Below, piece after piece: positions 4,334-53,288 of a stretch of 64,000 nt of DNA. Numbering within the stretch: position 1 is the first letter of the stretch; the number at the start of each line of letters is the position of its first letter. Position numbers and translations under genes: made by a program. The DNA comes from Hoeflea sp. (GTDB lineage Bacteria > Pseudomonadota > Alphaproteobacteria > Rhizobiales > Rhizobiaceae). The notes beneath the pieces were generated by a model. That model did no database searches, was not told the origin of the DNA, and worked only from the letters and a program-made list of their open reading frames with translations. Where the stretch lies: positions 4,163-68,162 of the forward strand of contig NZ_NVXQ01000010.1 of the NCBI RefSeq assembly GCF_002733955.1, read 5' to 3'.

Positions 4334-4942
4334 TCAGCTAGCCGCTTTCAACAACCTCTGGATCTTCAGCAGAGCCACATGCCGATCCTCGTGATAATCG
4401 ATAATCCCGCCAAATCGCCCGTCGGCCCGAAACAGGAACACGCCGGCGGTGTGGTCCATGGTATAGTCATCCTCCCTCGGCACTTTCTCGAATGTTGCGC
4501 GGAATTCTTCCGCGGCGCGCTTGATCTCGGCAAGTGACCCCGTCAGACCGGTGATTCTTGGATCGAAGTTCGACAGGTAGTCGGCAAGAACCTGTGGAGT
4601 GTCGCGCTCCGGGTCGACACTGACCAGAAAGATATTCATCAGGTCGGCGTCAGGGCCGAGATCTTGCAGCCAGAGCGAAATATCGCTCAGCGTCGTCGGA
4701 CAAACATCGGGGCACCAGGTAAAGCCGAAAAAGACCATTGTCGGGCGGCCAATCCACTCTGATGGCGTCACCGTCACGCCATGATGGTTCGTCAGGGTGA
4801 AGGACATCTTGCCGATGGGCAATGGCAACAGAGCGGAGCCGGGTTGCAGGCTGTCCCGGCTCTGCCACCACCCCAGACCGAGCGTGAAGGCCAGTGCGCC
4901 AACGCCCGACGCCCCGGCAACAAGTAGCGTACGGCGTCTCAA
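4334..4942 (-). CDS. SCO1/SenC-family copper chaperone
   Basis: FGFTWCPDVCPTTL (CxxxC) plus a downstream His (DHTAGVFL). N-terminal TM anchor. Confidence 0.85.
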   Translation of the reverse strand: MRRRTLLVAGASGVGALAFTLGLGWWQSRDSLQPGSALLPLPIGKMSFTLTNHHGVTVTPSEWIGRPTMVFFGFTWCPDVCPTTLSDISLWLQDLGPDADLMNIFLVSVDPERDTPQVLADYLSNFDPRITGLTGSLAEIKRAAEEFRATFEKVPREDDYTMDHTAGVFLFRADGRFGGIIDYHEDRHVALLKIQRLLKAAS

Positions 4943-5421
4943 TCTTTTTTGTCCACGCAGCCTGCATCTTTCGCACCCATTCCCCGGATCGCCACGGGAA
5001 CGGTCACGTCGCCTGCCTCGCGGAACGTCAGTGTAACCGGGAACGTCTCGCCTTCCTTCAGTACCTGTGTAAGACCCATCAGCATGCCGTGATAGCCGCC
5101 TGGCTCCAATTGCACGGTGGAATCTGCTGGCACGGGGATCGCCGGCGCGTGCGGCATCGAAGCCACGCCATCCTTCACCACCGTTTCGTGCAGCATGGGC
5201 TTTCCGGACACCGGCGTCGCGATGCCGGCAAGCGCATCGTCCGTCGCGCCGGTGTTGCGGATGGTGACATAGAAGGCGCCGGGCCGGGCCATTCCGATCG
5301 AAGCCCGCGACCAGGCTTCCGAGATTTCGAGCGAGCCAAGTTGAACGGTTTCACACGCCAGCAACGGGGTGGCGGATAGGCTGAGAAGGAGAGCGGTCAG
5401 AAGATATTTCATCGTATTCAC
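4939..5421 (-). CDS. PCu(A)C copper chaperone (DUF461)
   Basis: Signal peptide. Contains KPMLHETVVKDGVASMPH ... GGYHGMLMGL, the H(M)X10MX21HXM-type Cu(I) motif. Overlaps both SCO genes by 4 nt (ATGA). Confidence 0.8.
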   Translation of the reverse strand: MNTMKYLLTALLLSLSATPLLACETVQLGSLEISEAWSRASIGMARPGAFYVTIRNTGATDDALAGIATPVSGKPMLHETVVKDGVASMPHAPAIPVPADSTVQLEPGGYHGMLMGLTQVLKEGETFPVTLTFREAGDVTVPVAIRGMGAKDAGCVDKKD

Positions 5422-6011
5422 AATCTTTGCTTGAGGTCGTTCATGATTTCACTTGCTGGCGTGCCATAGCTGAATTGGCGCAGCCAGTTTCCGTCAGGTC
5501 CGATCAGGTAGAGTGATGCGCTGTGTGCCATTGTGTAACCATCCGGCGCGCCGGAACTGTCCTCGCGCTCATAGAAAATCCGGAAACTGCCGGCTGCCGC
5601 GCGGGTCTGCGCCTCGTCGCCGGCCAGACCGAGGATTGAGGGGTGAAAGGCCGCGGTATATTCAGCAAGTTCCAGGCCGCGGTCACGTGTCGGGTCGATG
5701 GAGATGAAGAGGGGCTGTACCTTTCCTGCGTCATCTCCCAGACCCTCCATCACTTGCGCCACTTCGGCAAGCGTCGTCGGGCAGACGTCCGGGCAATTGG
5801 TGAAGCCGAAAAAGACCAGAAGATGCTTCCCCGCAAAGTCCGAGGGCATGCGCACTCTTCCCTCAGCATCAAGCAGGGAAAAGGTCGGCCGGAAAGACAC
5901 TTCGGCCACCGGTGTTTCCGCGCGCTCATCAAGAAGATGCAACGCGCCGTAAGCCGGAATAGCAAGGGCCACCGCCGCCCAGAGCATCTTCTGCAGAACC
6001 TTCAATCGCAT
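5418..6011 (-). CDS. SCO1/SenC-family copper chaperone (second paralogue)
   Basis: FGFTNCPDVCPTTL and AHSASLYLIGPDG. TM anchor. Confidence 0.85.
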   Translation of the reverse strand: MRLKVLQKMLWAAVALAIPAYGALHLLDERAETPVAEVSFRPTFSLLDAEGRVRMPSDFAGKHLLVFFGFTNCPDVCPTTLAEVAQVMEGLGDDAGKVQPLFISIDPTRDRGLELAEYTAAFHPSILGLAGDEAQTRAAAGSFRIFYEREDSSGAPDGYTMAHSASLYLIGPDGNWLRQFSYGTPASEIMNDLKQRL

Positions 6012-6155
6012 CCTTGCCGTTCCTCGCGTTCCGGCTAGTCGTATAAAGCCTCTAGTGACATGAGCTTCAAGCGGAATATCTGAACATGCTCGGTCGGGAG
6101 GCGCTCCGCTGGTTAATCACTTCTGGGAGGGTCGCAGCGGGCCGGACGCAAATAA

Positions 6156-6917
6156 TCATGAAAAGCGGCGACGCAATGCAACATTGAACGCCTCGATAGC
6201 AAGAACCATGGCGATGACCGCCAGCGTGACACTGGCAGCCTTTTCGTATTGAAATGAGCGAACATAGGTCTGAATGTAGAAGCCGATGCCACCGGCTCCG
6301 ACGATGCCGAGGATAAGCGATTCTCGTAGGTTCAGCTCGAAACGAAAGATTGTATCACGGGCGATCACCGGAGCCATTTGCGGCCAGATTGCATAGCGTA
6401 GGCGTGCAAGCGGCCCGGCGCCCGCACTTTCCAGTGCGGCGATCGGTCCGCGGGCAACCCCATCAATTGCTTCAGCATAGAACTTCGCCAGCATGCCCGT
6501 TGCATGGATGGCAACCGCGATGATGCCCGGAAGCGGGCCGAGGCCCACTGCGCCAACCATCAACATGGCGACGAGAATCAGCGGAATGGCGCGAATCAGC
6601 GCGAGAGCTGTCCGCACCGGACGGTGAACGACGGGCGGGGCCATGGTTTCCGATGCCAAGACGCCGAGCGGCCCCGACAGGAGCACAGCACCGAGTGTTC
6701 CAAGGATGGCGATGCGCAGCGTCTCGGCGCTGCCGTTGATGATCTCGGTCATCACTGACGGATCCGGTGGAAACATCCGCGCAAGGAAATCACCGATGCG
6801 CGGCCCGGCGGAGAAGAGGCGGGAAAGTTCGACGTCGGTCGTCGCGAGCGACCAGAGCACGGCCCCGGCGACGAGCCCGCCCGTCGCGAAGCCGCCCCAA
6901 CCCCGGCTTTCCATCAC
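6156..6917 (-). CDS. phnE: Phosphonate/phosphite-type ABC transporter permease
   Basis: PhnE-like permease with the EAA-loop region (EAIDGVARGPIAALESAGAG). Overlaps phnC by 4 nt. Confidence 0.75.
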   Translation of the reverse strand: MMESRGWGGFATGGLVAGAVLWSLATTDVELSRLFSAGPRIGDFLARMFPPDPSVMTEIINGSAETLRIAILGTLGAVLLSGPLGVLASETMAPPVVHRPVRTALALIRAIPLILVAMLMVGAVGLGPLPGIIAVAIHATGMLAKFYAEAIDGVARGPIAALESAGAGPLARLRYAIWPQMAPVIARDTIFRFELNLRESLILGIVGAGGIGFYIQTYVRSFQYEKAASVTLAVIAMVLAIEAFNVALRRRFS

Positions 6918-7696
6918 GGCACCGCCTTCAGGCGGGGCTGTACGGCAGCATTCGCATCATCATAGAGCCGGGCTGTCGCGCCCTCGGTGAGCTCTGCCGT
7001 CGGAGTGTCGAAAACGATCCGACCGTTGCGCATGCCCACGATTCTCCGCGCGAAGCGCCGCGCAAGGTCGGGCTGGTGAGAGGAGAAGACTGTGGTCGCG
7101 CCTCGTCGACGCGCGGCTTCGGTTAGAAGCGAAAGGATCTCGGCTGCGCGTGCGGGGTCGAGGTTGCTCACCGGTTCGTCGGCAAGGATCAGGCGCGGCT
7201 CCTGCGAGAGGCAGCGTGCGATTGCGACTCGCTGCCGTTGTCCGCCGCTCAGACTGTCCACCCGTCGCTCAGCCAGGTCGACAATGCCGCAATCGGCCAG
7301 CGCCGCGCGCGCAACCGCAAGATCGTCTTTCGACGGCCGCCCGAGCAGGGCACGCAGCGGCCTCATGCGGCCCAGCCTGCCGTTCAGCACGTTGCGCAGC
7401 ACGCTGGCGCGTTCGACAAGAGCGAAGTCCTGAAAGATGAACCCCGTATCGGCCCGGCACGCGCGCGGCGGCGCACGGTCCGCATCGAGCGCGTCGCCCA
7501 GCACCGAGACGCGGCCGCGCCAAGCCCTCAGGCGACCATCGAGCAGCGTCAGGAGCGTCGTCTTGCCCGCCCCCGAAGGCCCGATCAGCGCGAGCGCTTC
7601 ACCCGGCGGGATAGACAGCGTCACCTGATCCAGCGTCGGCAGGCCCGAGGTGACATGGGAGAAACATAGCTCCTCGATGCGGAGGGCCTCGGTCAT
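6914..7696 (-). CDS. phnC: Phosphonate-type ABC transporter ATP-binding protein
   Basis: Walker A GPSGAGKTT, signature LSGGQRQRVAIA, Walker B LILADEP. Confidence 0.85.
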   Translation of the reverse strand: MTEALRIEELCFSHVTSGLPTLDQVTLSIPPGEALALIGPSGAGKTTLLTLLDGRLRAWRGRVSVLGDALDADRAPPRACRADTGFIFQDFALVERASVLRNVLNGRLGRMRPLRALLGRPSKDDLAVARAALADCGIVDLAERRVDSLSGGQRQRVAIARCLSQEPRLILADEPVSNLDPARAAEILSLLTEAARRRGATTVFSSHQPDLARRFARRIVGMRNGRIVFDTPTAELTEGATARLYDDANAAVQPRLKAVP

Positions 7697-8568
7697 TGCA
7701 GAAGCCCGTAGCGGCGGGCGAGTGCCCGAACACCGTCGAAAGCGGCCGCATCGGCCGGGACATAGCCGTCCGGGCCGTAGAGATGCCGCAACATGGCGCG
7801 ATGTTCGAGCTCGTTCAGCCGCAGCATAGCGTTCACGAAATTTTCCTGCACCTCGGCGTCCAGTCCCGGGCGGGCAATCACCAAGTGGCTAGGGATCGGC
7901 TCGCTCTCGGCGATCCAAGTGACTTGGGACTGTTGGCCTGGCGCGAGCAGGAGATCGGCATACTGGCTGGCGCCCGCGGCATCGACCAGTCCCTCTGCCA
8001 TTGCCTGCATCGCCTGCTGATATCCGCCCGCGAAGAACACTCTGCCGAAGAACGCTTCCGACTCTGCGGGTCCCGCGATCAGTCCCGCGCGCTCGAATTC
8101 AACCAGCGGGTAGAGATAGCCTGACTCCGAAATTGGATCGGCAAAGGCGATATCGCGTCCGCGCAAATCGGCCAGCGTGGTGATGCCGCTGTCGCGTCGC
8201 ACGAAGACCCGTCCGGTGTAGGTGGGGGCGTCGCGATAGATCTCGGATAAGAGCGGCACCGCACCGATTTGCGCCTCGGCCAGAACAAAGGGCAGCGCTC
8301 CCATGAAGGAGATGTCCGCATCGCCGTTGCGCAGCGCCTCGACGGCGGCGGCGTGATCGATGGTCACGAAACCTTCGACCGGCACGCCGATCTCTCGTGA
8401 CAGCCAACCGGTGATGGCCTTGATGTCGCCCAGTAGCTTTTCAGGGTTCTCCTGCGGAATAAAGGCCAACCGCAACGGGGCAGACTGCGCGCGAACCGGT
8501 GCCGCGAGGGCCGCGAGACTTGCACAGCACAGCGCCAGCATATGACGGCGGGAGAGCATGGAGTTCAT
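7693..8568 (-). CDS. phnD: PhnD-type periplasmic substrate-binding protein
   Basis: The internal ATG at 8568 gives MNSMLSRRHMLALCCASLAALAAPVRAQS (Tat/Sec-like signal), then LRLAFIPQENPEKL, typical of the PhnD family. The start overlaps the upstream stop (ATGA). Confidence 0.75.
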   Translation of the reverse strand: MNSMLSRRHMLALCCASLAALAAPVRAQSAPLRLAFIPQENPEKLLGDIKAITGWLSREIGVPVEGFVTIDHAAAVEALRNGDADISFMGALPFVLAEAQIGAVPLLSEIYRDAPTYTGRVFVRRDSGITTLADLRGRDIAFADPISESGYLYPLVEFERAGLIAGPAESEAFFGRVFFAGGYQQAMQAMAEGLVDAAGASQYADLLLAPGQQSQVTWIAESEPIPSHLVIARPGLDAEVQENFVNAMLRLNELEHRAMLRHLYGPDGYVPADAAAFDGVRALARRYGLLQ

Positions 8569-10460
8569 CAGAACGCCCTTTCTTCGATGGCTTGCGCCTC
8601 GGACTGAAATGCGGCCCAGCTTGCCTCTGCGGCGGCCCAATTGTCGGCGCGGACTTCTGCGCCAACTGCAGCCAGGTGTTCTGCGAGGGAGTAGATCTCC
8701 GGGCGTGCGACAAGGTTCGCCATGGTGCCAGCATCCGCTGCAAGATCGGCGGCGACGGTATCAGTCAGGAGCAGGATGTGCTGAGTGTCCCGGCGCGGCA
8801 GAAGGGTATCGAGGGTGGAGGCAAAGGTTGTCAGCTCCGCAAAAGCCAACCGGAATGGCGTATTCTCGGTGTCGAAGTCCTCATAAGGTTCATCCGCCGC
8901 GCCAACGGTCTCAAGGTAAGCGGTGAGATCGGCGCGCTCGGACTCGCTGAGGCCAAGGCTCTTGGTCGTGTCGAACCAGTTGACAACGGCGGCCAGCGTC
9001 GGCATCGAGCCGTCGTGGAAATAGGGCGCGGTATAGACGGTCCCGAGCAGGGTCGGCGTGTCCAGCGCCCCGCCGCGCGACCCTTCATAGGCCGGGATGA
9101 CCGATCCTATGTCATGTGCCTGCCGGTCCAGGAAATTGCCATCTGGCACATGACAACTGGCGCATGATTTGCCGTTCAGCCCGTCAAAAGGCTGGTTGAA
9201 GATCGCCGCGCCGCGCTGTGCCGCCTCAGGCGCGGCCTCGGTCAGGCGGCCGTCGCCGGTTAGCATCGCGTTCGGCAGAAAGTCGAACTCGGTCATGTAC
9301 GCGACGAGGGCGTCCAGCATGAAGGGCGTCGGCTCGGCCCCAGCGAATTCGTTGACGATCACGTTGCGGGTGAAATCGCGAATGCTGGCAAACCGGCCGT
9401 CACGGCCATAAGGACCCGTAAACCGCAGGCCGCGCAGGCTGGGAATGTCGATCGGGTCGGCGCGGCGGTCGTTGAACATCGGATTGAAGAAGGCACCGTC
9501 CACATCCACTGCTCCGGGTTGATGGCTGGCGCCGGGAATGAAGAAACGCTGGTTGATATCCGAACGGTTGTGGCAGGTCGAGCAGGCGATGCCAATTTCA
9601 CGCGCCGGGCCGCTGAATATTTCGGGGCTGTCGAACAGCATGTCGCCATAGGCGATGAGCGGCAGGTCGGTCTCATCTATGCCTTGCTCCTCGAAACCCA
9701 GTACAAGCAGGGGCAACGGATCCTGATCGAAGATGTCAGAGCCCGGAGGCAGCGTCGCGGGAAGCGTTACCGCACGGCCGCTGAGGGCGATGGTTTCCGG
9801 CACGGCGGTGAGGGTTGTGCGCGGTGCAAAATCGGCGACGCGGTAGTTCGCGGCGAGATAGTCGGAAACAACCACCCGCGCTGTCGCCATTGCGTTGAGA
9901 TCGGGTTCGGTCGCTCCAGCACCCAGCACCCCGGTGGAGCCGGTGGCACTGGACAGCTCCAGCCAGGCCCGTCCGAGCGCGCGGGCCGCTTCAGGGTCGG
10001 CGGCGGCGAGATGATCCTCGATTGCGCGATAAAGCTCTCGGGCCGTGCGTACCGCCTGCTGGGCTGCAGCGGGGCTCTCGGCCGCCAACGCCGCGTCAAG
10101 CTCTTCGTCGATGCGGGCGGAGATAATACGCGTCGCGGCCTCGAAAACCGCTGCCCGATCTTCGCGCGCGATGGCAGCTGTCAGCGGCTCGGTCGGTAGG
10201 GAGCTTTGGCCTGCGAGCCAATCGAGCGCACCTTGCGTGTATTCCGATCCGCGATAGGGCTCCTCCCAGGCGCGCCCTAATTCATCCCAAGGCACGGGAG
10301 TAAGATTGCCCAGAAACAGGGTCAGCCGGTAGGCGGCAGCCTCGGGTAGCCAAGGGGTATCTCTGGCCGGGGTCGCCATGGCCGGCCCGGCGAGCAGACC
10401 GATCCCCAGCCCAAAGCCGAAGACGAGAGCTAGTAATTTGATACGCACACGCGCCTCCAT
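8568..10460 (-). CDS. Di-haem cytochrome c peroxidase/MauG-family protein with a ~270-aa N-terminal domain
   Basis: Signal peptide. Two CXXCH motifs (CSTCHNR, CASCHVP) in a CCP-like C-terminal half. First gene of the phnDCE-like operon. Confidence 0.7.
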   Translation of the reverse strand: MEARVRIKLLALVFGFGLGIGLLAGPAMATPARDTPWLPEAAAYRLTLFLGNLTPVPWDELGRAWEEPYRGSEYTQGALDWLAGQSSLPTEPLTAAIAREDRAAVFEAATRIISARIDEELDAALAAESPAAAQQAVRTARELYRAIEDHLAAADPEAARALGRAWLELSSATGSTGVLGAGATEPDLNAMATARVVVSDYLAANYRVADFAPRTTLTAVPETIALSGRAVTLPATLPPGSDIFDQDPLPLLVLGFEEQGIDETDLPLIAYGDMLFDSPEIFSGPAREIGIACSTCHNRSDINQRFFIPGASHQPGAVDVDGAFFNPMFNDRRADPIDIPSLRGLRFTGPYGRDGRFASIRDFTRNVIVNEFAGAEPTPFMLDALVAYMTEFDFLPNAMLTGDGRLTEAAPEAAQRGAAIFNQPFDGLNGKSCASCHVPDGNFLDRQAHDIGSVIPAYEGSRGGALDTPTLLGTVYTAPYFHDGSMPTLAAVVNWFDTTKSLGLSESERADLTAYLETVGAADEPYEDFDTENTPFRLAFAELTTFASTLDTLLPRRDTQHILLLTDTVAADLAADAGTMANLVARPEIYSLAEHLAAVGAEVRADNWAAAEASWAAFQSEAQAIEERAF

Positions 10461-44413: not shown

Positions 44414-45363
44414 AATCCATATATCCGGAACGAGGACCGGCCGGAGAGTTCGCGCACGGCGTCAAAGCTCTCCAACCGGTCGAACAACCGGCTGCTGGCC
44501 CAGCGCGAGAGTTTGCTGCCGGGCGCCGATGCGGCAACCGCATCTTCATCGAGCAATGTCTGAAGCACAGGTCCGGCACCCTTGGTCCGCAATTTTGGTG
44601 CTACGGCCAGAAGCCGGTCAGCCCGGCGGCTGATCTCCCCCGCCGATCGCAATGCTGAGCTCGCACCATCGATCAAGGCCAAACATATCGCCCCCGCGAA
44701 TGCGGGTTCGCCCGGACGGACCCGTCCTCTCCCCCCGAGCGTCCGGAAGGCCGGGCCATACCGTTCAGCCATGAACAGCGGCACCGGAAAGGGCCATTTC
44801 AGCCTGGCAGCGATGAGCATGTCGGCAAGCGCCCAGGCGAGTGGTTCCGCATCCGGACGGGCGGCACAGACAGAAGCCACCAGCTCTGCCGCGGCAAAAG
44901 GCGGCGTCCGGCCGGACTGAAGCGCATCGTCGGTCGCAATCGTGGCTGCTGCAATCAGCTCCTCCCCGACGAGCCCAAACAAATCTGCAAGCTCAGCCAG
45001 GTGCCTTGAGGAAAACCCGGGTTTTCGACCGGCCATCCGTTTGAAGCCCAGAAACAGCCTTCCGGCCGGGCCCGGATCATCACCGGCTGCCGTCAGCAAG
45101 ACCGCGTCACGCAATGCCTGTTCGTCCTCGCCACCCCGCATGAGCTGAACCGCCACTGACGCGCATCTGAGCGCCTGCCTGGATCGCCAGCAACCTACCC
45201 AGACGGGGTCCAGCTGAACCAGATCATCAAGTGATTTCAGCGCGATACCGGCTGCAAAGGCGGCATCCGCCACGGACGGATCACGGCCACGCGCTTGCAT
45301 CCAGCCAGGCAGGCTGAACAACCGGACCGCCAAATCCGAGGGGGGTAGGGGCAACGAATCCAT
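44410..45363 (-). CDS. DUF1403-family protein, translationally coupled to scpB
   Basis: 317 aa. The N-terminal PGWMQARG...[14 protein letters not shown] pattern recalls the DUF1403 proteins that precede ScpB on alphaproteobacterial plasmids and ICEs (recollection). 4-nt overlap with scpB. Confidence 0.5.
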
Positions 45364-45642
45364 GGCGGTGACGCTATACCGGATGTGCGGAATTAGCTAT
45401 CAATTTCGGTGCTATCCGCACAGCATGTCGTAGATATTTTGTGAACGATAAGATTGCATTATTGGGCTTTATGCCCTTAAGGGAATGGCCCAGTTTAGAG
45501 AGCAAATCCCTTTTGGGACATTAGGCGGGTGCGCATCGAAGAACCGCTTTCGGAAACAGAATGCCGTACACCGATGACCACCATGGGAGCGCAAAGCTGC
45601 GATCTGTAACGCAGTGCAGCTCGTCAATGGAACGCCCCGAAG

Positions 45643-45912
45643 CTACCGCTTGAACGGAACCACGTTCGATCCGCCATTCGCAAACGCTACGGCACCTTCG
45701 TTTCGGATTGTGGTGACTGCTTCTTCAAAGGCGGTTTGGTCATAGTCGAACAGATCATCCCAAACGATGGATGTTCCGTCTTCAAGTACGACCTCCAGTG
45801 TCCACCCGTCCCCACCTTCAAGTTGGTAAATGTCGACTTTAAAGGTAATGCCCTCTTCGACGATCCGCCGCGACATGCCTGAACTAATCAGGTTTGGTTC
45901 CCTTTCCATCAT
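45643..45912 (-). CDS. Hypothetical small acidic protein
   Basis: 89 aa from MMEREPNLISSG. Protein-like composition, no family recognised. Confidence 0.35.
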   Translation of the reverse strand: MMEREPNLISSGMSRRIVEEGITFKVDIYQLEGGDGWTLEVVLEDGTSIVWDDLFDYDQTAFEEAVTTIRNEGAVAFANGGSNVVPFKR

Positions 45913-46707
45913 CGCACCTTTGCTGAATTGATAGCCCAATGTTATGTTCGTACATATCGCCGATACCCGCAACAGGTCGGTCCGCGGCTGTAAGTAGCAC
46001 CCCAACAGTGGGGTCGAAACCGTACATTCAGTGGTCGCAATTTTCGGTTTCGCTGGGCTGAGGCAAGTAAGCGGGCGGCTAGATCACAGAAGCACGCATC
46101 AAGCACTATTGGGGTCGGCAGCTTCAAGCAACTTCTGTCCTTCGTGCAAATATTCCAGACGGCACCGGCCCCGTATACCCATATATCATGAGTTATGCGA
46201 GACAACTCGTCGCTGCGTCTTCCAAGACGCACGCGTCATCTGTTAACCATTCCGGAGCCCTGTTCCGGATACGTTCTTTTTTGGCTTGCCGGACAAGCAG
46301 CTCCAGGATATCTGTTGACCGTCGCCAGAAACTAAATTTCTGCAGTGATTTAACGGCCCCCGTCGATGCTGCAAACATCGAACGAGGGCCTAACCCGCAA
46401 CCTTGGTAAGAAGGCCGAAGGCTATGTTGACCTTTATCGTGATCTCCCCAGATGGGGAAGACCAGTCCCACCCCTCTCCTGTGTTTGAAGCCCGATCACA
46501 GCGACGCTCAACGTGGACCAGTGACCCATTACGGTCACCCATCACTCTCTCTCGCTACTGATCATTTCACTTCATCGCGATAGTGCCAGTTCTTCGCCGA
46601 CATCAGCGGTTCGGTTGCCCGTTTCGGGCAGCCAATGCGGAAATTATTTCCGCATACGAACCTCCATGCCTGCCTGGCTGCCGTCATCGCTCCAACAGGA
46701 GATTTCC

Positions 46708-47619
46708 ATGACCAAGACCAAACTCACGACAACCACGTCACCCTTATATGCGTTTTCCGCAGACACACCGGAACTGAGGCAGAAGTTCTGTGCGTTCATC
46801 AATGAGCTTGTCGAAGGCCCCATGTCGGCAGAAGCCTTTACGCAAGCGCTGTCTGGCGGCATTGCTGACCTAGCTACCACGCTTCGCTCCCTGCCAGCAC
46901 TTGAAGGTCGACTGATCGAATTCGGCATTGCTGCCGTCGCTAGGTGCAATCCGGACCTCAAGGTGCTGACCCAGAACCTGAGATTGCCCGTCTCACCAAC
47001 CGCGCTAAAACTGGTCGAGTTGAACCACGCCGAAAATTTCCGAGCGTTGACATTCGACTCCGATATGGGCGGCCGCAAGACGTACACGCCTGACCTTGTC
47101 ATTCTCAATGAGCGTACCGGCACGGCGCATATCGTCGATGCCAAGCGCAGCGTTTACACTTATGACCGCGTACGGCTTGATGATCTGCAAAACCGTATGA
47201 AAGCAGCGGGCCTTGTCCTGCCAGACTTTCTTTACAAAGAGCACAAACGCCTCGTCACGAAAGAAGTCAGGGTCGTCATCCTCACTGCTGACAATCGGAA
47301 AACTGATCTGAATGGCGGCATCTGGCATATCTCGCAGTTGGACCACCTCGTGGAAGTGGAGGGTGCGGGCGCTGCAATCGCCCGCCTTCAGACAGAGTTC
47401 CATTTCTGTATTGAAGCGAACTGGAAAAAGGCGTGCGAGACATTTGCGCAGTCCCGCAAATTGCCGATAGCTGCCTTGGATCAGGTCGAGGCCGAGCTCG
47501 ATGATGTGGTGTCAGATAAAGAGGATGAGCAGTCCTTTGACGACGCTAATGCCATCGACGCCAGCGCCAATCGATCGATGATCAGGCTGGGCTTCCCTCA
47601 AGCGCCCACACGGCACTGA
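46708..47619 (+). CDS. Hypothetical protein with a PD-(D/E)XK nuclease-like motif
   Basis: ATG at 46708 follows the RBS aggag. Contains E(x)n...YTPDLVILNERTGTAHIVDAKRS, i.e. PD at 47089-47094 and DAK at 47137-47145 with 14 residues between them. Acidic C-terminal tail. Confidence 0.45.
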   Translation: MTKTKLTTTTSPLYAFSADTPELRQKFCAFINELVEGPMSAEAFTQALSGGIADLATTLRSLPALEGRLIEFGIAAVARCNPDLKVLTQNLRLPVSPTALKLVELNHAENFRALTFDSDMGGRKTYTPDLVILNERTGTAHIVDAKRSVYTYDRVRLDDLQNRMKAAGLVLPDFLYKEHKRLVTKEVRVVILTADNRKTDLNGGIWHISQLDHLVEVEGAGAAIARLQTEFHFCIEANWKKACETFAQSRKLPIAALDQVEAELDDVVSDKEDEQSFDDANAIDASANRSMIRLGFPQAPTRH

Positions 47620-47703
47620 CCAGCACTCCGCCCACTTACACATCAACTCTTTTGTTCACGACACCCGCCGATCTTAACGGTCTGGCGACGGGAGAATCTT
47701 GTC

Positions 47704-48180
47704 ATGCGTAAATCCGATCCCAACATCCCCAACAGCAACATCATCGCGTTTCCAAAACAGCAGCCAAAGCGTCTCTCAGGTGCCGCAGTCTACCTGCAAC
47801 AACCGGCTGCTCGCACGCCCAAGCGGAAGCAGGGCAAACCCCAAACCCGACTTCTGGTTCACGGCAGCGCGGCCAATGACGTGCTACAGCGAAATCGCCG
47901 GCGCGTTGAAATCCTGACTACAAAGGGCGACCCCACGCCCGAGCTGATCGACGAGCTGGCTCCGGGACTCGTCCGGAATGTCCTCCGCCGCGTCGGATCA
48001 GGTCAGTGCACCAAGACCAATCTGCCGAAGCCTCTGCGGAGGCGGCTCGATCTGATGTGCCAGTTCGGGCATCCGGCCGCCTTGATTATTAAAGACTGGC
48101 TCGACGGAAACAGGCGGTTCCTGCCCTCCAACCTACAGACCATTGCCGAGTATTCCACATGCGCCTTGGAGGAAAAGTGA
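47704..48180 (+). CDS. Hypothetical basic 158-aa protein, translationally coupled to the next gene
   Basis: The stop TGA overlaps the next ATG (TGATG at 48178-48182). No family recognised. Confidence 0.4.
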   Translation: MRKSDPNIPNSNIIAFPKQQPKRLSGAAVYLQQPAARTPKRKQGKPQTRLLVHGSAANDVLQRNRRRVEILTTKGDPTPELIDELAPGLVRNVLRRVGSGQCTKTNLPKPLRRRLDLMCQFGHPAALIIKDWLDGNRRFLPSNLQTIAEYSTCALEEK

Positions 48181-51028
48181 TGGGCACGATCAGCAAACGC
48201 GTTTCCAAATACCTCCTCGCCCGCCAACAGCGAGCCGCGCGGCTGGATGTCTTTGGTGATGCCCTGGACGCTGGCATTCTTGAACGCACACCACTCGGTG
48301 AGACCGAGCACAGCGGTGCAGTCTGGAAACTTGCGACCGAAACAGCAGCGCACCTCTCCGGTGATGTCGACCACGACCGGGAAGCGATCCGTTCGCTTCT
48401 TGAAGTTTCTTCGCGAAACAGGAAGCAGATCGAAAAACGGCTCGAAGCCGGTGATCTGGGTGGGTTTAAAGAGGATGAAGAAAGCGTTGGCGAAGCCTTC
48501 GCCACATCCGACAAATCCGCTGGCGACGCCGCTGGGCATTCCGACACGGCGACCGAGGTTGGCGGCGGAAGTGAGCCGTCCGCAAATCTGACGTCCAAAG
48601 AAGATGGGTCGAAATCAGGTAAGGGTACTCCAGCCACTATGTCCCCCGCGAAACTGGCAGCACTTCGCGATCAGGTCCTGTCAATCATTGCGGGCTTTGC
48701 ACCGGTATTGAAGGTTCCAGAAGTCGCGGCGGCGCTGCTGCTCGCAAGGGCAATCGAGAGGGATGGGCATGCCGTTGATCGATTGCTCTCGATTATGAAA
48801 TCCCGGAAATCGATTGTTGCCCTCCAGGTACCAGTCCGGGACTTCGAACGCCACTTCGGTCATCTTCTCGAAGACGGGCTCGTGATGCCATTCTATGTGT
48901 CGCTCGAAACGATCGCGGAGGGGCCATCCCTTGTCGGGCGCTACAAACCGCTCGCCGATTCAAAGCCGCGTAAATCCTTCAGCTGCTTCTCAGGTGCTTT
49001 GTTGAAACGGTACAGCGACGATGACGAACTCCGCAGCATCATCTCGAAGAGGGTTCTGACGGCATTCAAACCGCTGATCATCTGTGATGAACGCAATCGG
49101 CCGCTGCCAGAACGACTTTCCGCTGTCGCCGACATCGCGATCACGGGAAGCGGTATTGATTGCAGCCTGATCGCAGATGTTCTCGCAATCTGTCACGACA
49201 TCCCGATCGGTCGCTCCTGGTTCCTGATGAAAGAGCTCGGCTTTGAACCGCAGCATCTAGGAATTGATGATCTCGCGATCGCCATCCGTCCCGGTCGCTC
49301 ACTGACCAGGATCATTTCAGTTCTGGCGACGCTTGAAGCCGAAAACAGGGCAACGGCCGAAGCCAAGGAAGATGAGGAGAAGGAGAACAACATGGGCTCT
49401 CTGATGAAGCGCTCGGAAGCGAGAGAAATACACTGGCTGTTTCGACATCATCGAGCCCGTCAAAGAGACTGGCGGGGCGGATACGGGCAACGGGAATTGC
49501 GCGCAACAGCGAGGCAAACCGCCCACTGGCAAGGGCCAGCTGTTCGTTGAGCGGCTCGCTGGCTATGGCGATGCCCGGCAATGGGCGCTTGATCTCAAGA
49601 CTGATCTTGAGGCGTACAATGACAAAGAGGTCGAGTGGTCCGATCTCAGTTCACGGCTGCTGCTCTCTGGTCCACCCGGCACCGGCAAAACAACATTTGC
49701 CAGAGCGCTCTGCAACACCCTGAGTGTCCCTCTGATCGCGACGTCGGTGGCGAGATGGCTTGAGACGTCACATCTTGGGGATGTTCTGGCAGCAATGAAC
49801 ACGACATTCGAACAAGCAAGAGAGTCAGCACCCTGCATTCTGTTCATCGACGAAGTCGACAACATTGGAAGTCGCGGCAGCGGCGACCGAGCTTACGATG
49901 ATTATTGGTCGAGCATCGTCAATCGCATGCTCGAATTGCTCGATGGAGCTGCAAAAACCGAGGGTGTCATTGTCATTGGCGCTACAAACCGACCGGACAA
50001 GATCGACCCGGCAATTCTCCGCTCAGGCCGCCTTGAGAAACACATTGTTGTCCCGCCCCCGGATACCGATGCACTGGTCCAGATCATTGCACATCATCTC
50101 GGGAGCGATCTCGAAGTCGTCCTGGAAAGCACTGAGGTCGGCGGGTCAGTCGGTCGGACCAAGTCACCTGCGGCATTGGCCGAACTCCGCAACACCACAG
50201 TCGACAACCGCAACGCCCGCCCCTGTGAAGACCGTGCAGGAGTGCTTGCTAATGGATGAGTCCCATCTCTCAGCCGCCAACCCAGATTGGAACCCGGTGC
50301 TCAAACCCCTGGCATTGGCTGCCGCTGGCAAGACCGGTGCAGACATCGAGCGTCTGATCCGCGAAGCACGCCAAAAAGCGCGTCGTGAAAAGCGACCGCT
50401 CACCTACAACGACATCCAAGAAGCACTCACCGCTGGTCAGGCGGATATGTCACCAGCACTGATCTGGCGAATTGCAGTTCACGAGGCTGGCCATGCTTTG
50501 GCTTGGATTGCATTCGACATCGCTACTGTTCAGACCGTGACCGTTGGAAATGGCTCAGGCGGTTTCGTTGAAAGTGATATTCGAACGGATGTCGTTCAGA
50601 CAGAAGAGTGGCTCAACAAGATGATCGCCTGTGCGCTTGCCGGCAGGTCGGCGGAAAAGCTCATCTTCGGCGATTGCGTCCTGGGGTCTGGCGGCAGTGA
50701 ACAGTCTGACCTTGCCCGCGCCACGAGACTAGCAACAGATGCCGAGGCTAATCTCGGCTTCGGGCAAGCGCAGCCATTGTTGTATCGTTCGATGGATGCG
50801 CAGCCGTCGATCCTCTCCCTCGATCGTCAGCTTGCACAGCACGTCCACGCCCGACTTGAGGCTGGGGAGGCCTTGGCTACCAAATTGCTGTCGCAGCATC
50901 GTAGCGCACTGCTGGCATTGGCAACCCGCCTTGCTCATGCGAAGACCCTTGATGGAGGCGAAGTGCGATCATTGCTTGCTCTGGAAATGAATGTCGTCAC
51001 ACCGGGTTCCAAAGGACCGGCGCCCTGA
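48180..51028 (+). pseudogene. Soluble FtsH-like AAA+ ATPase / M41 zinc metalloprotease with a ~420-aa N-terminal domain; reading frame broken twice (frames 0 -> 1 -> 2)
   Basis: Frame 0 (48180-49550) carries the N-terminal domain. Frame 1 carries Walker A GPPGTGKT (49669-49692), Walker B ILFIDEVD and the second region of homology GATNRPDKIDPAILRSGR, and ends at 50259. Frame 2 carries the lid GKTGADIERLIREA and HEAGH (50480-50494) through to 51028. There is no ATG/GTG/TTG in frame 1 upstream of Walker A, and no TM helices. Confidence 0.6.
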
Positions 51029-51237
51029 AACTGCGATTCAGAATTCGGCTTCTGCGTTACCAGAACCGGCGCCCGCGATTCCAAACCGGGCGCCAGCGAT
51101 TCTGAATGCCGGATTGGCGATTCCGATCCAGGGTTCGCCGAATCAGATATCAGTCCCCGCGTTGCCAGAGCCCGCCTTGCCGATTCCCACTCCAGCGCAG
51201 CCGATTCCAAACTGCAATTCTGCGATTCAGGTCAGAG
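51028..51237. repeat. Array of ten contiguous 21-bp repeats with the core GCGATTC (GANTC)
   Basis: Seven-nt cores sit at 51033+21k (k=0..9): GCGATTC, GCGTTAC, GCGATTC, GCGATTC, GCGATTC, CCGAATC, GCGTTGC, CCGATTC, CCGATTC, GCGATTC. The flanks are variable. Confidence 0.8.
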
Positions 51238-51323
51238 GATCAGCCGCCTTCACGATCATGATTTGCGTGAAGCCGTGAATCAGCTAACCGAGGACCAGGG
51301 CGGGCCCTCTTTCTGGAAGGCCT

Positions 51324-51554
51324 ATGATGACGAAAAGACACAAACGAAAACCGGAACTGACACCTGCGCAGATTGATGATCTCGTTGCCCGGTTGACACA
51401 CCTACATAAGGACTTGGTTCCTCTGCTGTGCGAGCTAAAGCCGCAGTCCGAACACTACAATGCGGTCGTTGACATCAACGATTCCCTGGCCAGCGCAATC
51501 CGCAAGATCTCGGGCGATGAGCCGATATGGATGCAGCCCCGGATCAGCCGTTAG
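51324..51554 (+). CDS. Hypothetical 76-aa protein between the two repeat arrays
   Basis: MMTKRHKRKPELTPAQIDDLVARLTHLHKDL... has a basic N-terminus followed by helical character. No family recognised. Confidence 0.35.
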   Translation: MMTKRHKRKPELTPAQIDDLVARLTHLHKDLVPLLCELKPQSEHYNAVVDINDSLASAIRKISGDEPIWMQPRISR

Positions 51555-51793
51555 CAACGACTGGAACTCAGGCCCGTGGCTTCTCGCAACGGCGGGCGAG
51601 ACCGGGCTTAGAGATCATTGCAGCTGCCAAAGCTCCATGCCGTAGTGGCGTTTGCGGGAAGTCTTCAAAACAAAGCCGTCGCAACCTGATATCCATTGAA
51701 ACAGCGTGTGGGCAAGGCGGTTTAGGTCACCGAGACATCAAACTGACCTGCAATGGCGTGCCGGCAACCTGAAACAAGTCATGTCAATTTATC

Positions 51794-51856
51794 CTGCCGC
51801 GATTCTGAAGTCTGTCCTACCGATTCGAAACCGAGAAACCGCGATTCCTCTGTGAA
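51794..51856. repeat. Second, three-unit 21-bp GCGATTC array
   Basis: Cores GCGATTC (51799), CCGATTC (51820) and GCGATTC (51841), with the same GATTCnAAAC flank as units in the first array. Confidence 0.6.
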
Positions 51857-52003
51857 CGGCGTTTGCAGACGACGGGCTGGAATCCTCGATACCAACTCCG
51901 CCGCGCAATTGCCTTCCAAATTGTCAACATTGCAGGCAAACGGCGTTTGTTGCTTGCATCGCCGACCGTCAAAATGGGTCTCCACGATAACAAGGAGATC
52001 AGG

Positions 52004-52324
52004 ATGTCAAAGAGATCAAAGCGGGAAATCAATGCAGAGCAGAGGGCGAGGCAGCAGCGAGTAAGAGACGCGGCTCGCAATCGGCGGAGGCCGTCCAGGG
52101 ACGATCTTGCGCGAATGCTGCTATGGAAAATGATCATGAGCGCCGGGAAGCATCATCTGGGGCAACGGGAGGCGCTGGATCGGCTAAGGGATGAGATTGT
52201 TGATGGCTTGGAGCTTCAGGGTTTTGATGTCTGTGAAAGTGAAGAGGTCTTCGAAGAGCTTGCTGGGCGGTACGCTGATGGCCTATTTCCATTTCGACCG
52301 AAACGGCATCTCAAGCCAGCGTGA
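52004..52324 (+). CDS. Hypothetical 106-aa protein with a strongly basic N-terminus
   Basis: ATG at 52004 follows the RBS aaggag. MSKRSKREINAEQRARQQRVRDAARNRRRPSRDD..., with an acidic C-terminal half. Confidence 0.45.
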   Translation: MSKRSKREINAEQRARQQRVRDAARNRRRPSRDDLARMLLWKMIMSAGKHHLGQREALDRLRDEIVDGLELQGFDVCESEEVFEELAGRYADGLFPFRPKRHLKPA

Positions 52325-52655
52325 TCAGCAGCCTCTTGGCACCATCATCCAAACCGCGTTTGATACAACTCATCTGCCCTCCCCCCATTACTAGTCATAA
52401 CGGCGTTTGCGCGGGAATCGCAAAAGTGGGTTTCACAGCAACGTTGCTCTGGACTTCTCTGATTGCAATCCGGATCAATTTGGCGATGTTCACCTGGTGG
52501 AAACGCCATTATCTGTATCTATCTGGAAATCACTTCTGCTTCGCGCCCCCAACTCGATCATTTAGCATCTGCGATGCCGGTTCCCTCCCGGCTCCATATA
52601 CTCTTTTCTTTTGCGCATTATTCCGACGGCCAATGACGGCCGAAGGAGAACTCAA

Positions 52656-53288
52656 ATGGGTACTGCACAATATGATCCTGCTGCACTGGGTCGACCGGCA
52701 TGGAACGCCGGCCGGAAGGTCGGTGTGAAGAAGCCACTGAAACAGCGCCAGATATGGGCGATCCGCTTCTTCCTCGATAGAGAGGGACGCATGAGAGACC
52801 GCGCGTTGTTCGACCTCGCGTTCGATAGCAAGCTTCGAGGTTGCGATCTCGTGAAGATCAAGATCGGAACCCTCGTGACCGGGCCCGAGATTCGATCGCG
52901 CGCGATGGTGATCCAGCAGAAGACCGGTCGTCCGGTTCAGTTCGAGATCACGGCCGACGTGAGGGCCAGCCTGCTTGCCTGGCTTGAGCGAAGAGGTGGA
53001 ACGGTTGACGACTACGCCTTTCCCAGCCGGGTCGATCCTGCCGATCACCTGAGCACTCGCCAGTACGCAAGATTGGTCGATGAGTGGGTGGCCGCGATCG
53101 GCCTGCGATGCGAGGACTACGGCACACACTCGCTTCGCCGAACCAAGGCGGCGATGATCTACAAGGCGACAGGCAATCTTCGCGCGATCCAAATTCTCTT
53201 GGGCCACACCAAGATCGAGAATACCGTCAGGTATCTTGGGGTAGACATCGAGGATGCCCTGGAGCTGGCGGAGCACACGGAGATTTGA
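52656..53288 (+). CDS. Short tyrosine recombinase/integrase (210 aa)
   Basis: ATG at 52656 follows the RBS aaggag. GLRCEDYGTHSLRRTKAAMIYKATGNLRAIQILLGHTKIENTVRYLG supplies the R...HxxR...Y catalytic signature region. Confidence 0.85.
   Translation: MGTAQYDPAALGRPAWNAGRKVGVKKPLKQRQIWAIRFFLDREGRMRDRALFDLAFDSKLRGCDLVKIKIGTLVTGPEIRSRAMVIQQKTGRPVQFEITADVRASLLAWLERRGGTVDDYAFPSRVDPADHLSTRQYARLVDEWVAAIGLRCEDYGTHSLRRTKAAMIYKATGNLRAIQILLGHTKIENTVRYLGVDIEDALELAEHTEI

What the first reader, a model, noticed from the sequence alone, without database searches (positions are those of the whole stretch)
51028..51237. Ten contiguous, exactly 21-bp-phased GCGATTC repeats (eight GANTC sites in 200 bp) directly after the AAA+/M41 gene stop
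The 7-nt cores fall at 51033+21k for k=0..9 without slippage. Seven are G/CCGATTC, one is CCGAATC and two are GCGTTRC, while the 14-nt flanks vary (loose GATTCCAAAC tendency). All seven core bases are conserved regardless of codon position, which points to a DNA-level constraint rather than a peptide constraint. A 21-bp period is two helical turns, placing every site on one face, as in iteron or centromere (parC/parS-like) arrays or cooperative operator arrays. GANTC is the CcrM methylation site in Alphaproteobacteria, so occupancy could depend on the cell cycle or on methylation. I do not recognise this array as a described element.
Basis: seen in the sequence. Interest (0 to 1): 0.65.

Follow-up and report, generated by a model that had tools for sequence, protein, structure and literature searches.

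The report
Phased CGATTC operator-like array, new family
The ten 21-bp repeats are real and non-coding, and they belong to a conserved set of strictly phased CGATTC sites that always lies upstream of a small uncharacterised basic protein gene in Rhizobiaceae, so they are most likely that protein's binding and operator array rather than a plasmid origin or centromere.

Summary
Ten units of exactly 21 bp follow the M41 stop codon, with cores at 51033+21k and eight GANTC sites.

The array is not translated:
- A 78%-identical paralogous copy and two further Hoeflea copies keep it without indels.
- Substitutions show no codon-phase bias, whereas the flanking genes show strong third-position bias.
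- The 95-codon "AIP" frame is closed in relatives, and an AT-rich clade has stops in the spacers.

The array is a conserved DNA-level element. In 45 non-redundant loci from many Rhizobiaceae genera, GATTC outnumbers GAATC 296:16 upstream of one small gene, orf107 (52004-52324). Of 254 successive distances, 154 are exactly 21 bp and 46 are 42, 63 or 84 bp. Only the core CG(A/T)T(T/G)C is conserved.

The arrays follow orf107, not the M41 gene. They sit on its strand, 50-500 bp upstream. This holds where orf107 is divergent from the nuclease/AAA+/M41 cassette and in a genome lacking the cassette's nuclease gene and any M41 match beyond FtsH level.

Best reading (about 0.55): a cooperative operator array on one face of the helix, bound by orf107, whose family has no known relatives. 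Binding is inferred, not shown. An iteron or centromere role is unlikely. A CcrM-methylation-sensitive switch is not excluded.

The parts
51033..51228 (+). Distal array: ten 21-bp units, with cores at 51033+21k. The unit pattern is A-B-A-A-A-A'-B-A-A-A, where A = [G/C]CGATTC, B = GCGTTRC and A' = CCGAATC.
   Evidence: Conserved without indels in the paralogue (L054), L003 and L035. Core positions C, G, T, C are invariant or nearly so, while the spacers vary.
51799..51847 (+). Proximal three-unit array, with GATTC at 51801, 51822 and 51843. It ends 156 bp upstream of the orf107 start. This is the most widely conserved part of the system.
   Evidence: An equivalent triple is present in 40 non-redundant orf107 loci.
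51768..51794 (+). Conserved box CCTGAAACAAGTCATGTCAATTTATCC directly upstream of the proximal array (family consensus ..CATCTCAATTTAC..). It is a possible promoter: CTTGAA-like -35 and TATCC-like -10.
   Evidence: Alignment of 40 loci. The promoter assignment is an inference; the consensus scan found no sigma-70 match.
51854..51866 (.). Palindrome AAACG-G-CGTTT (GAACGGCGTTTGC), 7 nt after the last proximal unit. Further copies are at 51938-51950 (upstream of orf107) and at 52351-52361 and 52398-52410 (just after orf107).
   Evidence: Its position after the last GATTC is conserved across loci. The rest of the 64-kb window holds only one other near-match.
52004..52324 (+). orf107: a 106-aa protein with an Arg/Gln-rich N-terminal helix, predicted to have four helices. 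Its family has no Pfam, NCBIfam, PHROG or PDB relative. It is the gene to which the arrays are linked and the candidate binder.
51324..51554 (+). orf76: a small gene between the two arrays, starting about 90 bp after the distal array. It is present only in the Hoeflea clade. Third-position substitution bias shows it is a real gene.
   Evidence: substitutions by codon position 14/6/31.
51248..51272 (+). Inverted repeat CTTCACG-N11-CGTGAAG just after the distal array. It is kept in L003 and partly in the paralogue.
   Evidence: Its function is unknown.
50252..51028 (+). Stand-alone M41 (FtsH-like) peptidase gene with an intact HEAGH motif. Its ATG overlaps the AAA+ gene stop (ATGGATGA).
48159..50259 (+). 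AAA+ ATPase gene with a long N-terminal domain. It is frameshifted near 49400-49550 in this copy and intact (739 aa) in the paralogue on C3.
46615..48180 (+).
   Evidence: They are conserved with the AAA+ and M41 genes in about 20 loci.

Best explanation
The ten-unit array is the distal part of a two-part, non-coding cis-element. The element consists of strictly 21-bp-phased direct repeats of the core CG(A/T)T(T/G)C, mostly CGATTC. It lies in the upstream and leader region of a small basic helical protein gene, orf107 (52004-52324).

Proposed mechanism: orf107 protein binds one core per two helical turns. All copies therefore sit on one face of the DNA and bind cooperatively. A conserved three-unit proximal array lies between a promoter-like box and a terminal AAACG-G-CGTTT palindrome. 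A distal array of variable length (0-13 units, ten here) adds avidity, or loops to or insulates the proximal array. The complex would set orf107's own expression. Depending on the arrangement, it would also control read-through from, or divergent transcription of, the adjoining nuclease-like/basic/AAA+/M41 cassette.

Shown: non-coding status, conservation, phasing, strand orientation, exclusive linkage to orf107, and independence from the cassette.

Inferred: that orf107 is the binder, and that the outcome is transcriptional (auto)regulation.
For: 1. Not coding.
- Substitutions between the two genomic copies fall 14/15/14 by phase in the array. The M41 gene shows 27/106/37 and orf76 shows 14/6/31.
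- All six pairwise comparisons among four Hoeflea-clade copies lack phase bias.
- No ORF over the array is conserved.
- The G144/G238 clade has AT-rich spacers with stop codons.

2. Conserved at the DNA level across genera.
- Only C-GATTC carries information in 143 units.
- Spacers turn over completely.

3. Strict helical phasing and orientation.
- In 45 non-redundant 1-kb regions upstream of orf107, GATTC outnumbers GAATC 296 to 16.
- 154 of 254 successive distances are exactly 21 bp. A further 33 are 42, 4 are 63 and 9 are 84. Only 3 are 20.
- The arrays are never on the opposite strand.

4. Linked to orf107, not to M41.
- Arrays lie 50-500 bp upstream of orf107 where it follows M41.
- The same holds where orf107 is divergent from the cassette's first gene (L088 and L064-L066).
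- The same holds where no cassette is nearby (L086, L087).
- Genome G084 has the arrays and orf107. It has no homologue of the cassette's first gene and no M41 match beyond FtsH level.
- M41 loci with no orf107 within 1.5 kb have no arrays: 7 of 7.

5. Locus-specific. In this genome, in-phase runs occur only at the two cassette copies.

6. orf107 properties.
- The N-terminal helix is Arg/Gln-rich, with invariant Q13, R16, R21, R32 and R37 and nearly invariant Q17 and R29.
- This is consistent with a conserved base-reading surface matching the invariant core. That link is an inference.

7. No RNA structure signal (z = -0.34) and no Rfam match.
Against: - There is no binding or expression evidence of any kind.
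- orf107 has no recognisable DNA-binding fold. The AlphaFold model is only moderately confident (pLDDT 68), and Foldseek, PDB and Pfam give nothing.
- Two kinds of conserved DNA motif (direct repeats and palindromes) accompany a single conserved locus-specific protein. One motif may therefore belong to a host factor.
- In this window the ten-unit array lies 775 bp upstream of orf107 and only about 90 bp upstream of the clade-specific orf76. It could serve orf76 instead.
- Constant same-strand orientation is also what an RNA-level leader element would show.
- The consensus scan found no sigma-70 promoter, so the promoter position is a guess.
- Exceptions to the linkage remain unexplained. 7 of 30 orf107 loci, mostly the weakest profile matches, had no run of 3 or more exact GATTC. 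Two M41 loci (L018/L053 and L019) had a run but no detectable orf107.
Confidence: 0.55

Rival explanations
1. A host-factor or methylation-centred element. The cores are read by a chromosomal protein that recognises GANTC-containing sites (GcrA-like or MucR-like) and/or by the CcrM methyltransferase. The arrays would then couple orf107 and cassette expression to the cell cycle. They could also form a heritable methylation switch between the proximal and distal clusters.
For: - Eight of the ten cores are GANTC sites.
- The only other equally dense GANTC cluster in the genome is the oriC-like region.
- Protein occlusion of GANTC from CcrM, with local hypomethylation and promoter effects, is documented in Caulobacter and Sinorhizobium (PMC5172544).
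- The array-orf107 unit persists in a genome without the cassette's first gene, so a host binder is possible.
Against: - Recognition is narrower than GANTC. N is T on the gene strand in nearly all units, with C preferred 5' of the core.
- Positionally conserved GCGTTRC units are not GANTC sites.
- Arrays occur nowhere else in the genome. A global regulator would be expected to have other phased targets.
- The strict co-occurrence with orf107 argues for a locus-encoded binder.
Confidence: 0.15
2. Recombination or mobility sites. The repeats would be arm-type or accessory binding sites for a tyrosine recombinase or a directionality factor that moves the cassette or island. orf107 would act as an excisionase-like architectural protein.
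For: - Relatives of a DUF6538-type tyrosine recombinase (Pfam-confirmed only in L086) lie immediately downstream of orf107 on the opposite strand in L037, L038, L040, L049, L050, L051 and L086.
- A 225-aa recombinase gene follows orf107 in this window, at 52611-53288.
- Homology between the two genomic copies ends exactly at the orf107 stop.
- Phased direct repeats bound by small basic proteins are typical of excisionase sites (established knowledge).
Against: - Most loci have no recombinase within reach.
- Arrays are positioned relative to the orf107 start, not relative to the recombinase gene or to homology boundaries.
- No target duplications or att-like core was identified.
Confidence: 0.08
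3. An RNA-level element. The repeats would act in the orf107/orf76 leader, or in the M41 3' UTR, as periodic GAUUC motifs bound by an RNA-binding protein. The arginine-rich N-terminus of orf107 would suit such a role.
For: - Arrays are always on the sense strand of orf107.
- No terminator is predicted between M41 and orf107.
- A salt-marsh metatranscriptome holds small contigs over 50983-51131 and 51273-51478.
Against: - The exact 21-nt period equals two turns of B-DNA and has no obvious rationale for single-stranded RNA.
- There is no structure signal (z = -0.34), no Rfam match and no compensatory pattern in the spacers.
- The metatranscriptome contigs may be DNA carry-over.
Confidence: 0.07
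4. A plasmid maintenance element: iterons of a replication origin or a centromere-like partition site.
For: - The repeats are tandem and direct with a period of about two helical turns, and an AT-richer box sits beside the proximal array.
- Some family members lie on plasmids.
Against: - There is no Rep initiator or ParA/ParM/TubZ-type gene in or beside the cassette.
- There is no DnaA box within 50900-52450.
- The unit lies on Mb-sized contigs (4.84 Mb in G061, 3.95 Mb in G084) and occurs in 2-3 copies per genome. Active iterons or centromeres in such numbers would create incompatibility.
- Only a 6-bp core is conserved, unlike iterons.
Confidence: 0.05
5. A translated heptad-repeat peptide: the 95-codon frame 50991-51278 reading AIPxxxx, or a read-through tail of the M41 protein.
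For: That frame is open in both copies in this genome, with the same length.
Against: - There is no codon-phase bias.
- The frame is not open in L003 or L035.
- The frame that continues M41 has stops in the paralogue.
- The AT-rich clade has stops in the spacers.
- The array's distance from the M41 stop, and its copy number, vary between loci.
Confidence: 0.02

Closest known systems
Operator or centromere arrays of short direct repeats bound cooperatively by small plasmid proteins that also autoregulate (for example R1 ParR/parC, PMC2241845; pSK41 ParR with 20-bp repeats and pSM19035 omega with heptads, recalled from memory)
   Same: - Many tandem direct repeats lie upstream of the gene for a small binding protein.
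- Only a short core is conserved.
- Copy number varies between relatives.
- The repeats form two separated clusters, as in parC.
   Different: - No partition NTPase gene is present.
- The period is exactly 21 bp, not 7-11 or 20 bp.
- The candidate binder is predicted to be all-helical, not ribbon-helix-helix.
- The unit occurs on Mb-sized contigs and in several copies per genome.
pED208 TraM binding to sbmA in the F-like oriT region (PMC3159463)
   Same: - A small oligomeric plasmid protein specifically reads GANTC motifs.
- Cooperative binding needs the motifs placed on one side of the helix.
   Different: - TraM uses a ribbon-helix-helix domain.
- Its motifs are 12 bp apart with inverted symmetry and four per site.
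- It lies beside a relaxase and oriT.
- Here the motifs are asymmetric CGATTC direct repeats at 21 bp, up to 13 per array, and no relaxosome genes were seen.
Iterons of theta-replicating plasmids (reviewed in PMC4980987)
   Same: The repeats are direct and same-oriented, spaced about two helical turns apart, and lie near an AT-richer segment.
   Different: - There is no Rep gene and no DnaA box.
- Only 6 of 21 positions are conserved.
- Chromosomal and multi-copy occurrence is hard to reconcile with origin function.
GANTC methylation by CcrM and its occlusion by DNA-binding proteins in Alphaproteobacteria (PMC5172544). The Dam/Lrp pap switch, recalled from memory, is a conceptual parallel.
   Same: - Binding sites overlap the CcrM target.
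- Proximal and distal site clusters lie upstream of a regulatory gene.
   Different: - No methylation data exist for this locus.
- The conserved variant units are not GANTC sites.
- The binder is probably locus-encoded rather than a global regulator.

Membership tests
Plasmid iterons (Rep-binding origin repeats) | Tandem, same-oriented repeats of about 17-22 bp | tested here: met
   There are ten units of exactly 21 bp. Across 45 loci the spacing is 21 bp or a multiple of it.
Plasmid iterons (Rep-binding origin repeats) | An adjacent gene for a Rep initiator that binds them | tested here: not met
   Pfam, NCBIfam and PADLOC scans of all neighbouring ORFs found no Rep family. orf107 is 106 aa and has no known domain.
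Plasmid iterons (Rep-binding origin repeats) | DnaA boxes and an AT-rich unwinding element beside the repeats | tested here: not met
   No DnaA box with one mismatch or fewer lies within 50900-52450. The richest 30-nt window is only 67% A+T.
Plasmid iterons (Rep-binding origin repeats) | Supports autonomous replication and exerts incompatibility | not testable with these tools
   This needs cloning and replication or incompatibility assays.
Partition centromere (parC/parS-like) | A linked partition NTPase gene (ParA, ParM or TubZ) | tested here: not met
   None was found among ORFs from 35 to 53 kb in the window or in related loci.
Partition centromere (parC/parS-like) | A repeat array upstream of the gene for the small centromere-binding protein | tested here: inconclusive
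   The arrays are upstream of the small orf107 gene. However, orf107 has no ribbon-helix-helix or ParB-like signature.
CcrM (GANTC) methylation targets | Sequence GANTC | tested here: met
   Eight sites lie within 51035-51228. The two GCGTTRC units are not GANTC sites.
CcrM (GANTC) methylation targets | Adenine methylation state that varies with occupancy or with the cell cycle | not testable with these tools
   No SMRT or nanopore methylation calls were available.
Translated heptad-repeat protein | A conserved open frame with synonymous-biased substitutions | tested here: not met
   Searches show no phase bias, and the frame is closed in L003 and L035. Spacers in L008 and L009 contain stops.
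TraM/sbm-type relaxosome accessory sites | GANTC motifs read by a ribbon-helix-helix protein, at 12-bp staggered inverted spacing, next to oriT and a relaxase | tested here: not met
   The motif class is shared. The spacing here is 21 bp and direct. orf107 is predicted to be all-helical. No relaxase was seen among the neighbours.
Structured RNA family (Rfam) | A match to a covariance model, or significant folding | tested here: not met
   There were no Rfam hits at E <= 1. The folding z-score is -0.34.

The most novel reading that the evidence does not exclude
The proximal (3-unit) and distal (3-13-unit) CGATTC arrays form a CcrM-methylation-sensitive bistable switch, an alphaproteobacterial counterpart of the Dam/Lrp pap switch. 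Cooperative occupancy of one cluster by orf107 would shield its GANTC adenines from CcrM and be inherited through replication. Individual cells would then heritably switch a mobile nuclease/AAA+/M41-protease cassette ON or OFF. The non-GANTC GCGTTRC units would serve as methylation-independent nucleation points.
Probability: 0.1. Interest if true: 0.8.

Novelty: new variant of a known kind. Interest (0 to 1): 0.5.

Why it matters
If orf107 binds these repeats, it would found a new family of small DNA-binding proteins. About 148 clusters at 50% identity exist among 1.8 billion proteins, nearly all 100-115 aa, and none has a known domain. Its recognition code would be unusually clean and testable: one 6-bp core every two helical turns, 3 to 13 in a row.

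It would also supply the regulatory handle for an uncharacterised mobile cassette in Rhizobiaceae. That cassette comprises a nuclease-like protein, a small basic protein, an AAA+ ATPase and a separate M41 zinc peptidase, and it occurs in 2-3 copies per genome. It looks like a defence or addiction module but matches no known system.

Because the core overlaps the CcrM site, the locus is a natural place to test whether element-encoded regulators exploit cell-cycle methylation.

If the binder turns out to be a host factor, the arrays are still the densest phased target known for it.

Tried and rejected
- **DNA search against PLSDB plasmids** with the array region found nothing.
- **The search for related loci** with the M41 protein gave only one true relative, a Hoeflea MAG. 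The genome search was needed for breadth.
- **Tandem Repeats Finder** sees only about 2 units, so it is not suited to this element.
- **orf107 identification** failed with every resource tried: Pfam, NCBIfam, PHROGs and PADLOC, the PDB sequence profile, and AlphaFold plus Foldseek.
  - One UniRef record calls a homologue "Mobilization protein", and JGI calls another "HflD". I treat both as unsupported labels.
  - Three distant members carry a C-terminal DUF5983 domain, which is uninformative.
- **Promoter and terminator consensus scans** found nothing in 50900-52400.
- **RNA-seq:** no isolate transcriptome was found. I therefore could not check the AAA+ frameshift or methylation-related signals in reads.
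- **Literature searches** for GANTC or GATTC repeat arrays, and for DUF1403/ScpB, returned nothing relevant.
- **An integron-like reading** was considered and dropped. In it, composite repeats would flank inserted genes in Rhizobium sp. TCK plasmid LR723676. That locus holds two orf107 units in tandem, each with its own arrays.
- **The 158-aa basic protein or the AAA+ N-domain as binder** was considered and rejected. Arrays and orf107 persist in G084, which lacks the cassette's nuclease-like first gene and shows only an FtsH-level M41 match.
Full report
**1. The observation**

- The M41 gene ends with TGA at 51026-51028.
- From there the sequence falls into ten units of exactly 21 bp. Their 7-nt cores at 51033+21k read GCGATTC, GCGTTAC, GCGATTC, GCGATTC, GCGATTC, CCGAATC, GCGTTGC, CCGATTC, CCGATTC, GCGATTC.
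- Eight cores contain GANTC.
- Shuffling the segment 20,000 times never gave more than 3 GATTC, against 7 observed.
- In the whole 4.86-Mb assembly, runs of 3 or more GATTC spaced exactly 21 bp occur only here and at one other place on contig C3.

**2. Coding or not**

The window lies on contig C40. A 7.2-kb segment (window 45161-52324) has a 78%-identical paralogue on contig C3.

- The array is kept there without a single indel, and the cores are better conserved than the spacers.
- Differences between the two copies fall 14/15/14 over the three phases inside the array. The M41 gene shows 27/106/37 and the small gene 51324-51554 shows 14/6/31.
- Adding two further Hoeflea-clade copies (L003, L035) gives six pairwise comparisons, and none shows phase bias. 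The invariant skeleton is C-G-(A/T)-T-(T/G/A)-C.
- The 95-codon frame that reads AIPxxxx (50991-51278) is open in both copies of this genome but not in L003 or L035. No other ORF over the array is conserved.
- In a more distant clade (G144, G238) the spacers are AT-rich and full of stop codons, while the CGATTC cores and the 21-bp phase are intact.
The constraint is on the nucleic acid.

**3. What the array belongs to**

Searching 301 genomes of the same family with the M41 protein showed a widespread stand-alone M41 peptidase.

- Mapping all window proteins onto about 20 extended loci revealed a conserved cassette.
- Nothing downstream of orf107 is conserved.
- The gene 51324-51554 (orf76), between the arrays, exists only in the Hoeflea clade.
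- A profile of orf107 (alignment A1) was then used as the probe. The arrays follow orf107, not M41:
  - In 23 of 30 orf107 loci, a run of 3 or more exact GATTC lies mostly 50-500 bp upstream of the orf107 start. It is always on orf107's strand and never on the other.
  - In G091, and in two loci with the same array layout (G007, G035), orf107 sits upstream of the cassette and divergent from its first gene. The arrays then lie in the divergent intergenic region.
  - In L086 (G084) and L087 (G045), orf107 with its arrays stands without any cassette nearby. G084 has no homologue of the cassette's first gene anywhere in its genome, and only an FtsH-level M41 match.
  - Conversely, seven M41 loci without orf107 within 1.5 kb have no arrays.
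  - Two M41 loci (L018/L053 and L019) had an in-phase run but no detectable orf107. This remains unexplained.
- Over 45 non-redundant orf107 upstream regions (45 kb in total), GATTC occurs 296 times and GAATC 16 times. Of 254 successive GATTC distances, 154 are exactly 21 bp, 33 are 42, 4 are 63 and 9 are 84. Only 3 are 20.
- In 143 units, only the C before GATTC and a weak AA at +3/+4 carry information beyond the core.

**4. Anatomy of the element**

The best-conserved part is a proximal composite of about 110 bp.

- It consists of a box (family consensus ..CATCTCAATTTAC..; here GTCATGTCAATTTATCC, within 51768-51794), then three units, then a palindrome.
- The three units have GATTC at 51801, 51822 and 51843. 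In some clades the middle unit is CGTTGC, CGTTAC or CGTTTC.
- The palindrome AAACG-G-CGTTT starts 4-8 nt after the last unit (51854-51866).
- Further palindrome copies lie at 51938 (upstream of orf107) and at 52351 and 52398 (just after it). The rest of the window holds only one near-match.
- Its half-site CGTTT(G) resembles the variant core CGTT(T/G/A)C. One protein could therefore read both motif types. This is an inference.
Here it begins five bases after the M41 stop.
- The unit pattern A-B-A-A-A-A'-B-A-A-A, with non-GANTC B units at positions 2 and 7, is the same in all four Hoeflea-clade copies.
- No sigma-70 consensus promoter or intrinsic terminator is detected between M41 and orf107.
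- The array has no RNA folding signal (z = -0.34) and no Rfam match.

**5. The candidate binder**

- orf107 is a family of about 148 clusters at 50% identity among 1.8 billion proteins. Nearly all members are 100-115 aa and stand alone. They are annotated "hypothetical" in Hoeflea, Sinorhizobium, Rhizobium, Shinella and others.
- It has an Arg/Gln-rich N-terminal helix with invariant Q13, R16, R21, R32 and R37 and nearly invariant Q17 and R29. It also has a conserved RPSRDDxARxLLW motif and a C-terminal FPFRPKRHL motif.
- AlphaFold predicts four helices at moderate confidence (pLDDT 68).
- Foldseek against the PDB, a PDB sequence-profile search, Pfam, NCBIfam, PHROGs and PADLOC give nothing.
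- Three distant members are fused to DUF5983.
- The unit persists where the cassette is absent. The cassette's basic protein and the AAA+ N-domain are therefore poor candidates. The binder is orf107 itself or a host factor.

**6. Most likely mechanism**

- A period of exactly 21 bp, two turns of B-DNA, puts all asymmetric cores on one face in the same orientation. A single short core per unit, complete spacer turnover and variable copy number are the hallmarks of a cooperative protein-binding array.
- Position and orientation relative to the orf107 start point to control of orf107 transcription. Depending on the arrangement, the arrays would also control read-through from, or divergent transcription of, the cassette.
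- I propose that orf107 oligomerises along the repeats. It may nucleate at the palindrome or at the methylation-independent variant units. The long distal array would add avidity, or loop to or insulate the proximal operator.
- Confidence that this is a non-coding DNA-level cis-element tied to orf107 is about 0.9. Confidence that orf107 is the binder and the output is (auto)regulation is about 0.55.

**7. Rivals**

- **Host factor or CcrM-centred reading.** It stays open at about 0.15. The cores overlap GANTC. The only other equally dense GANTC cluster in the genome is an oriC-like region with two TTATCCAC boxes. Occlusion of GANTC from CcrM by bound proteins is documented (PMC5172544). Against it stand the narrower specificity, the conserved non-GANTC units and the absence of such arrays elsewhere.
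- **Recombination-site reading (about 0.08).** It rests on relatives of a DUF6538-type tyrosine recombinase (Pfam-confirmed only in L086) on the opposite strand immediately downstream of orf107 in seven loci. It also rests on the recombinase gene at 52611-53288 here. Most loci lack one.
- **RNA-level reading (about 0.07).** It fits the strand constancy but not the helical period.
- **Iteron or centromere function (about 0.05).** It fails the membership tests: no Rep gene, no partition NTPase, no DnaA box, location on Mb-sized contigs and several copies per genome.
- **Coding repeat.** It is excluded.

**8. Comparison with known systems**

- The element works most like the operator or centromere arrays of small plasmid proteins such as ParR/parC (PMC2241845).
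- In motif it resembles pED208 TraM, which reads GANTC motifs that must lie on one side of the helix (PMC3159463).
- It is a member of neither. The period, the symmetry, the predicted protein fold and the gene context all differ.
- No paper found in the library describes phased CGATTC arrays.
- I class it as a new variant of a known kind: a cooperative direct-repeat operator with an undescribed binder family.

**9. Limits**

- There are no binding, expression or methylation data.
The AAA+ frameshift in this copy could therefore not be checked against reads.
- Only one metatranscriptome hint of transcription exists.
- The promoter assignment is an inference from conservation.

Noticed in passing
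window 49400-49550 (AAA+ gene 48159-50259): The AAA+ gene changes frame near 49400-49550 in this copy. The paralogue on contig C3 reads through as one 739-aa protein. This copy is therefore a pseudogene or carries an assembly error.
   Followed up: partly
window 50252-50259: The second 'frame break' noted by the first stage is not a break. It is a conserved gene boundary: the AAA+ stop and the M41 start overlap as ATGGATGA in both copies. Most homologues in other genera also encode M41 as a separate ORF of about 260 aa, although some are fused.
   Followed up: yes
window 45161-52324 and genome contig C3 about 179-186 kb: A 7.2-kb paralogous segment, 78% identical, runs from inside the DUF1403 gene to the exact stop of orf107. 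Beyond it, the C3 copy continues with a different gene (possibly WYL-like; no domain search was run) instead of the recombinase.
   Followed up: partly
genome contig C2 180.85-181.18 kb (outside the window): An oriC-like region with two TTATCCAC DnaA boxes and 8-9 GANTC sites. It is the only other place in the genome with a GANTC density equal to the array's.
   Followed up: partly
window 51854-51866, 51938-51950, 52351-52361, 52398-52410: Four copies of the palindrome AAACG-G-CGTTT bracket orf107, two upstream and two just downstream. Across the family, one copy follows the last unit of most arrays.
   Followed up: partly
L037, L038, L040, L049, L050, L051, L086 (downstream of orf107): A large tyrosine recombinase gene (about 630-675 aa; DUF6538 and Phage_integrase domains confirmed by Pfam only in L086) lies on the opposite strand a few hundred bp after orf107 in seven loci from several genera. 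This suggests the unit often sits at an island edge.
   Followed up: partly
L055 (Rhizobium sp. TCK plasmid LR723676.1, locus 1267-8626): Two orf107 units lie in tandem, each with its own arrays. The second follows a different set of unannotated genes rather than the AAA+/M41 cassette. The annotation places a minus-strand CDS over the first orf107-like frame.
   Followed up: partly
proteins P0229, P0237, P0259: Rare fusions of an orf107-like N-terminal domain to a C-terminal DUF5983 domain.
   Followed up: no
window 51248-51272: An inverted repeat, CTTCACG-N11-CGTGAAG, lies directly after the ten-unit array. It is conserved in L003 and partly in the paralogue. It has no T-tract, so it is not a typical terminator.
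   Followed up: no
window 50983-51131 and 51273-51478: A salt-marsh metatranscriptome (run X25) contains two short contigs, about 93-94% identical, over the end of M41 plus the first array units and over orf76. This is a weak hint that the region is transcribed in a relative.
   Followed up: partly
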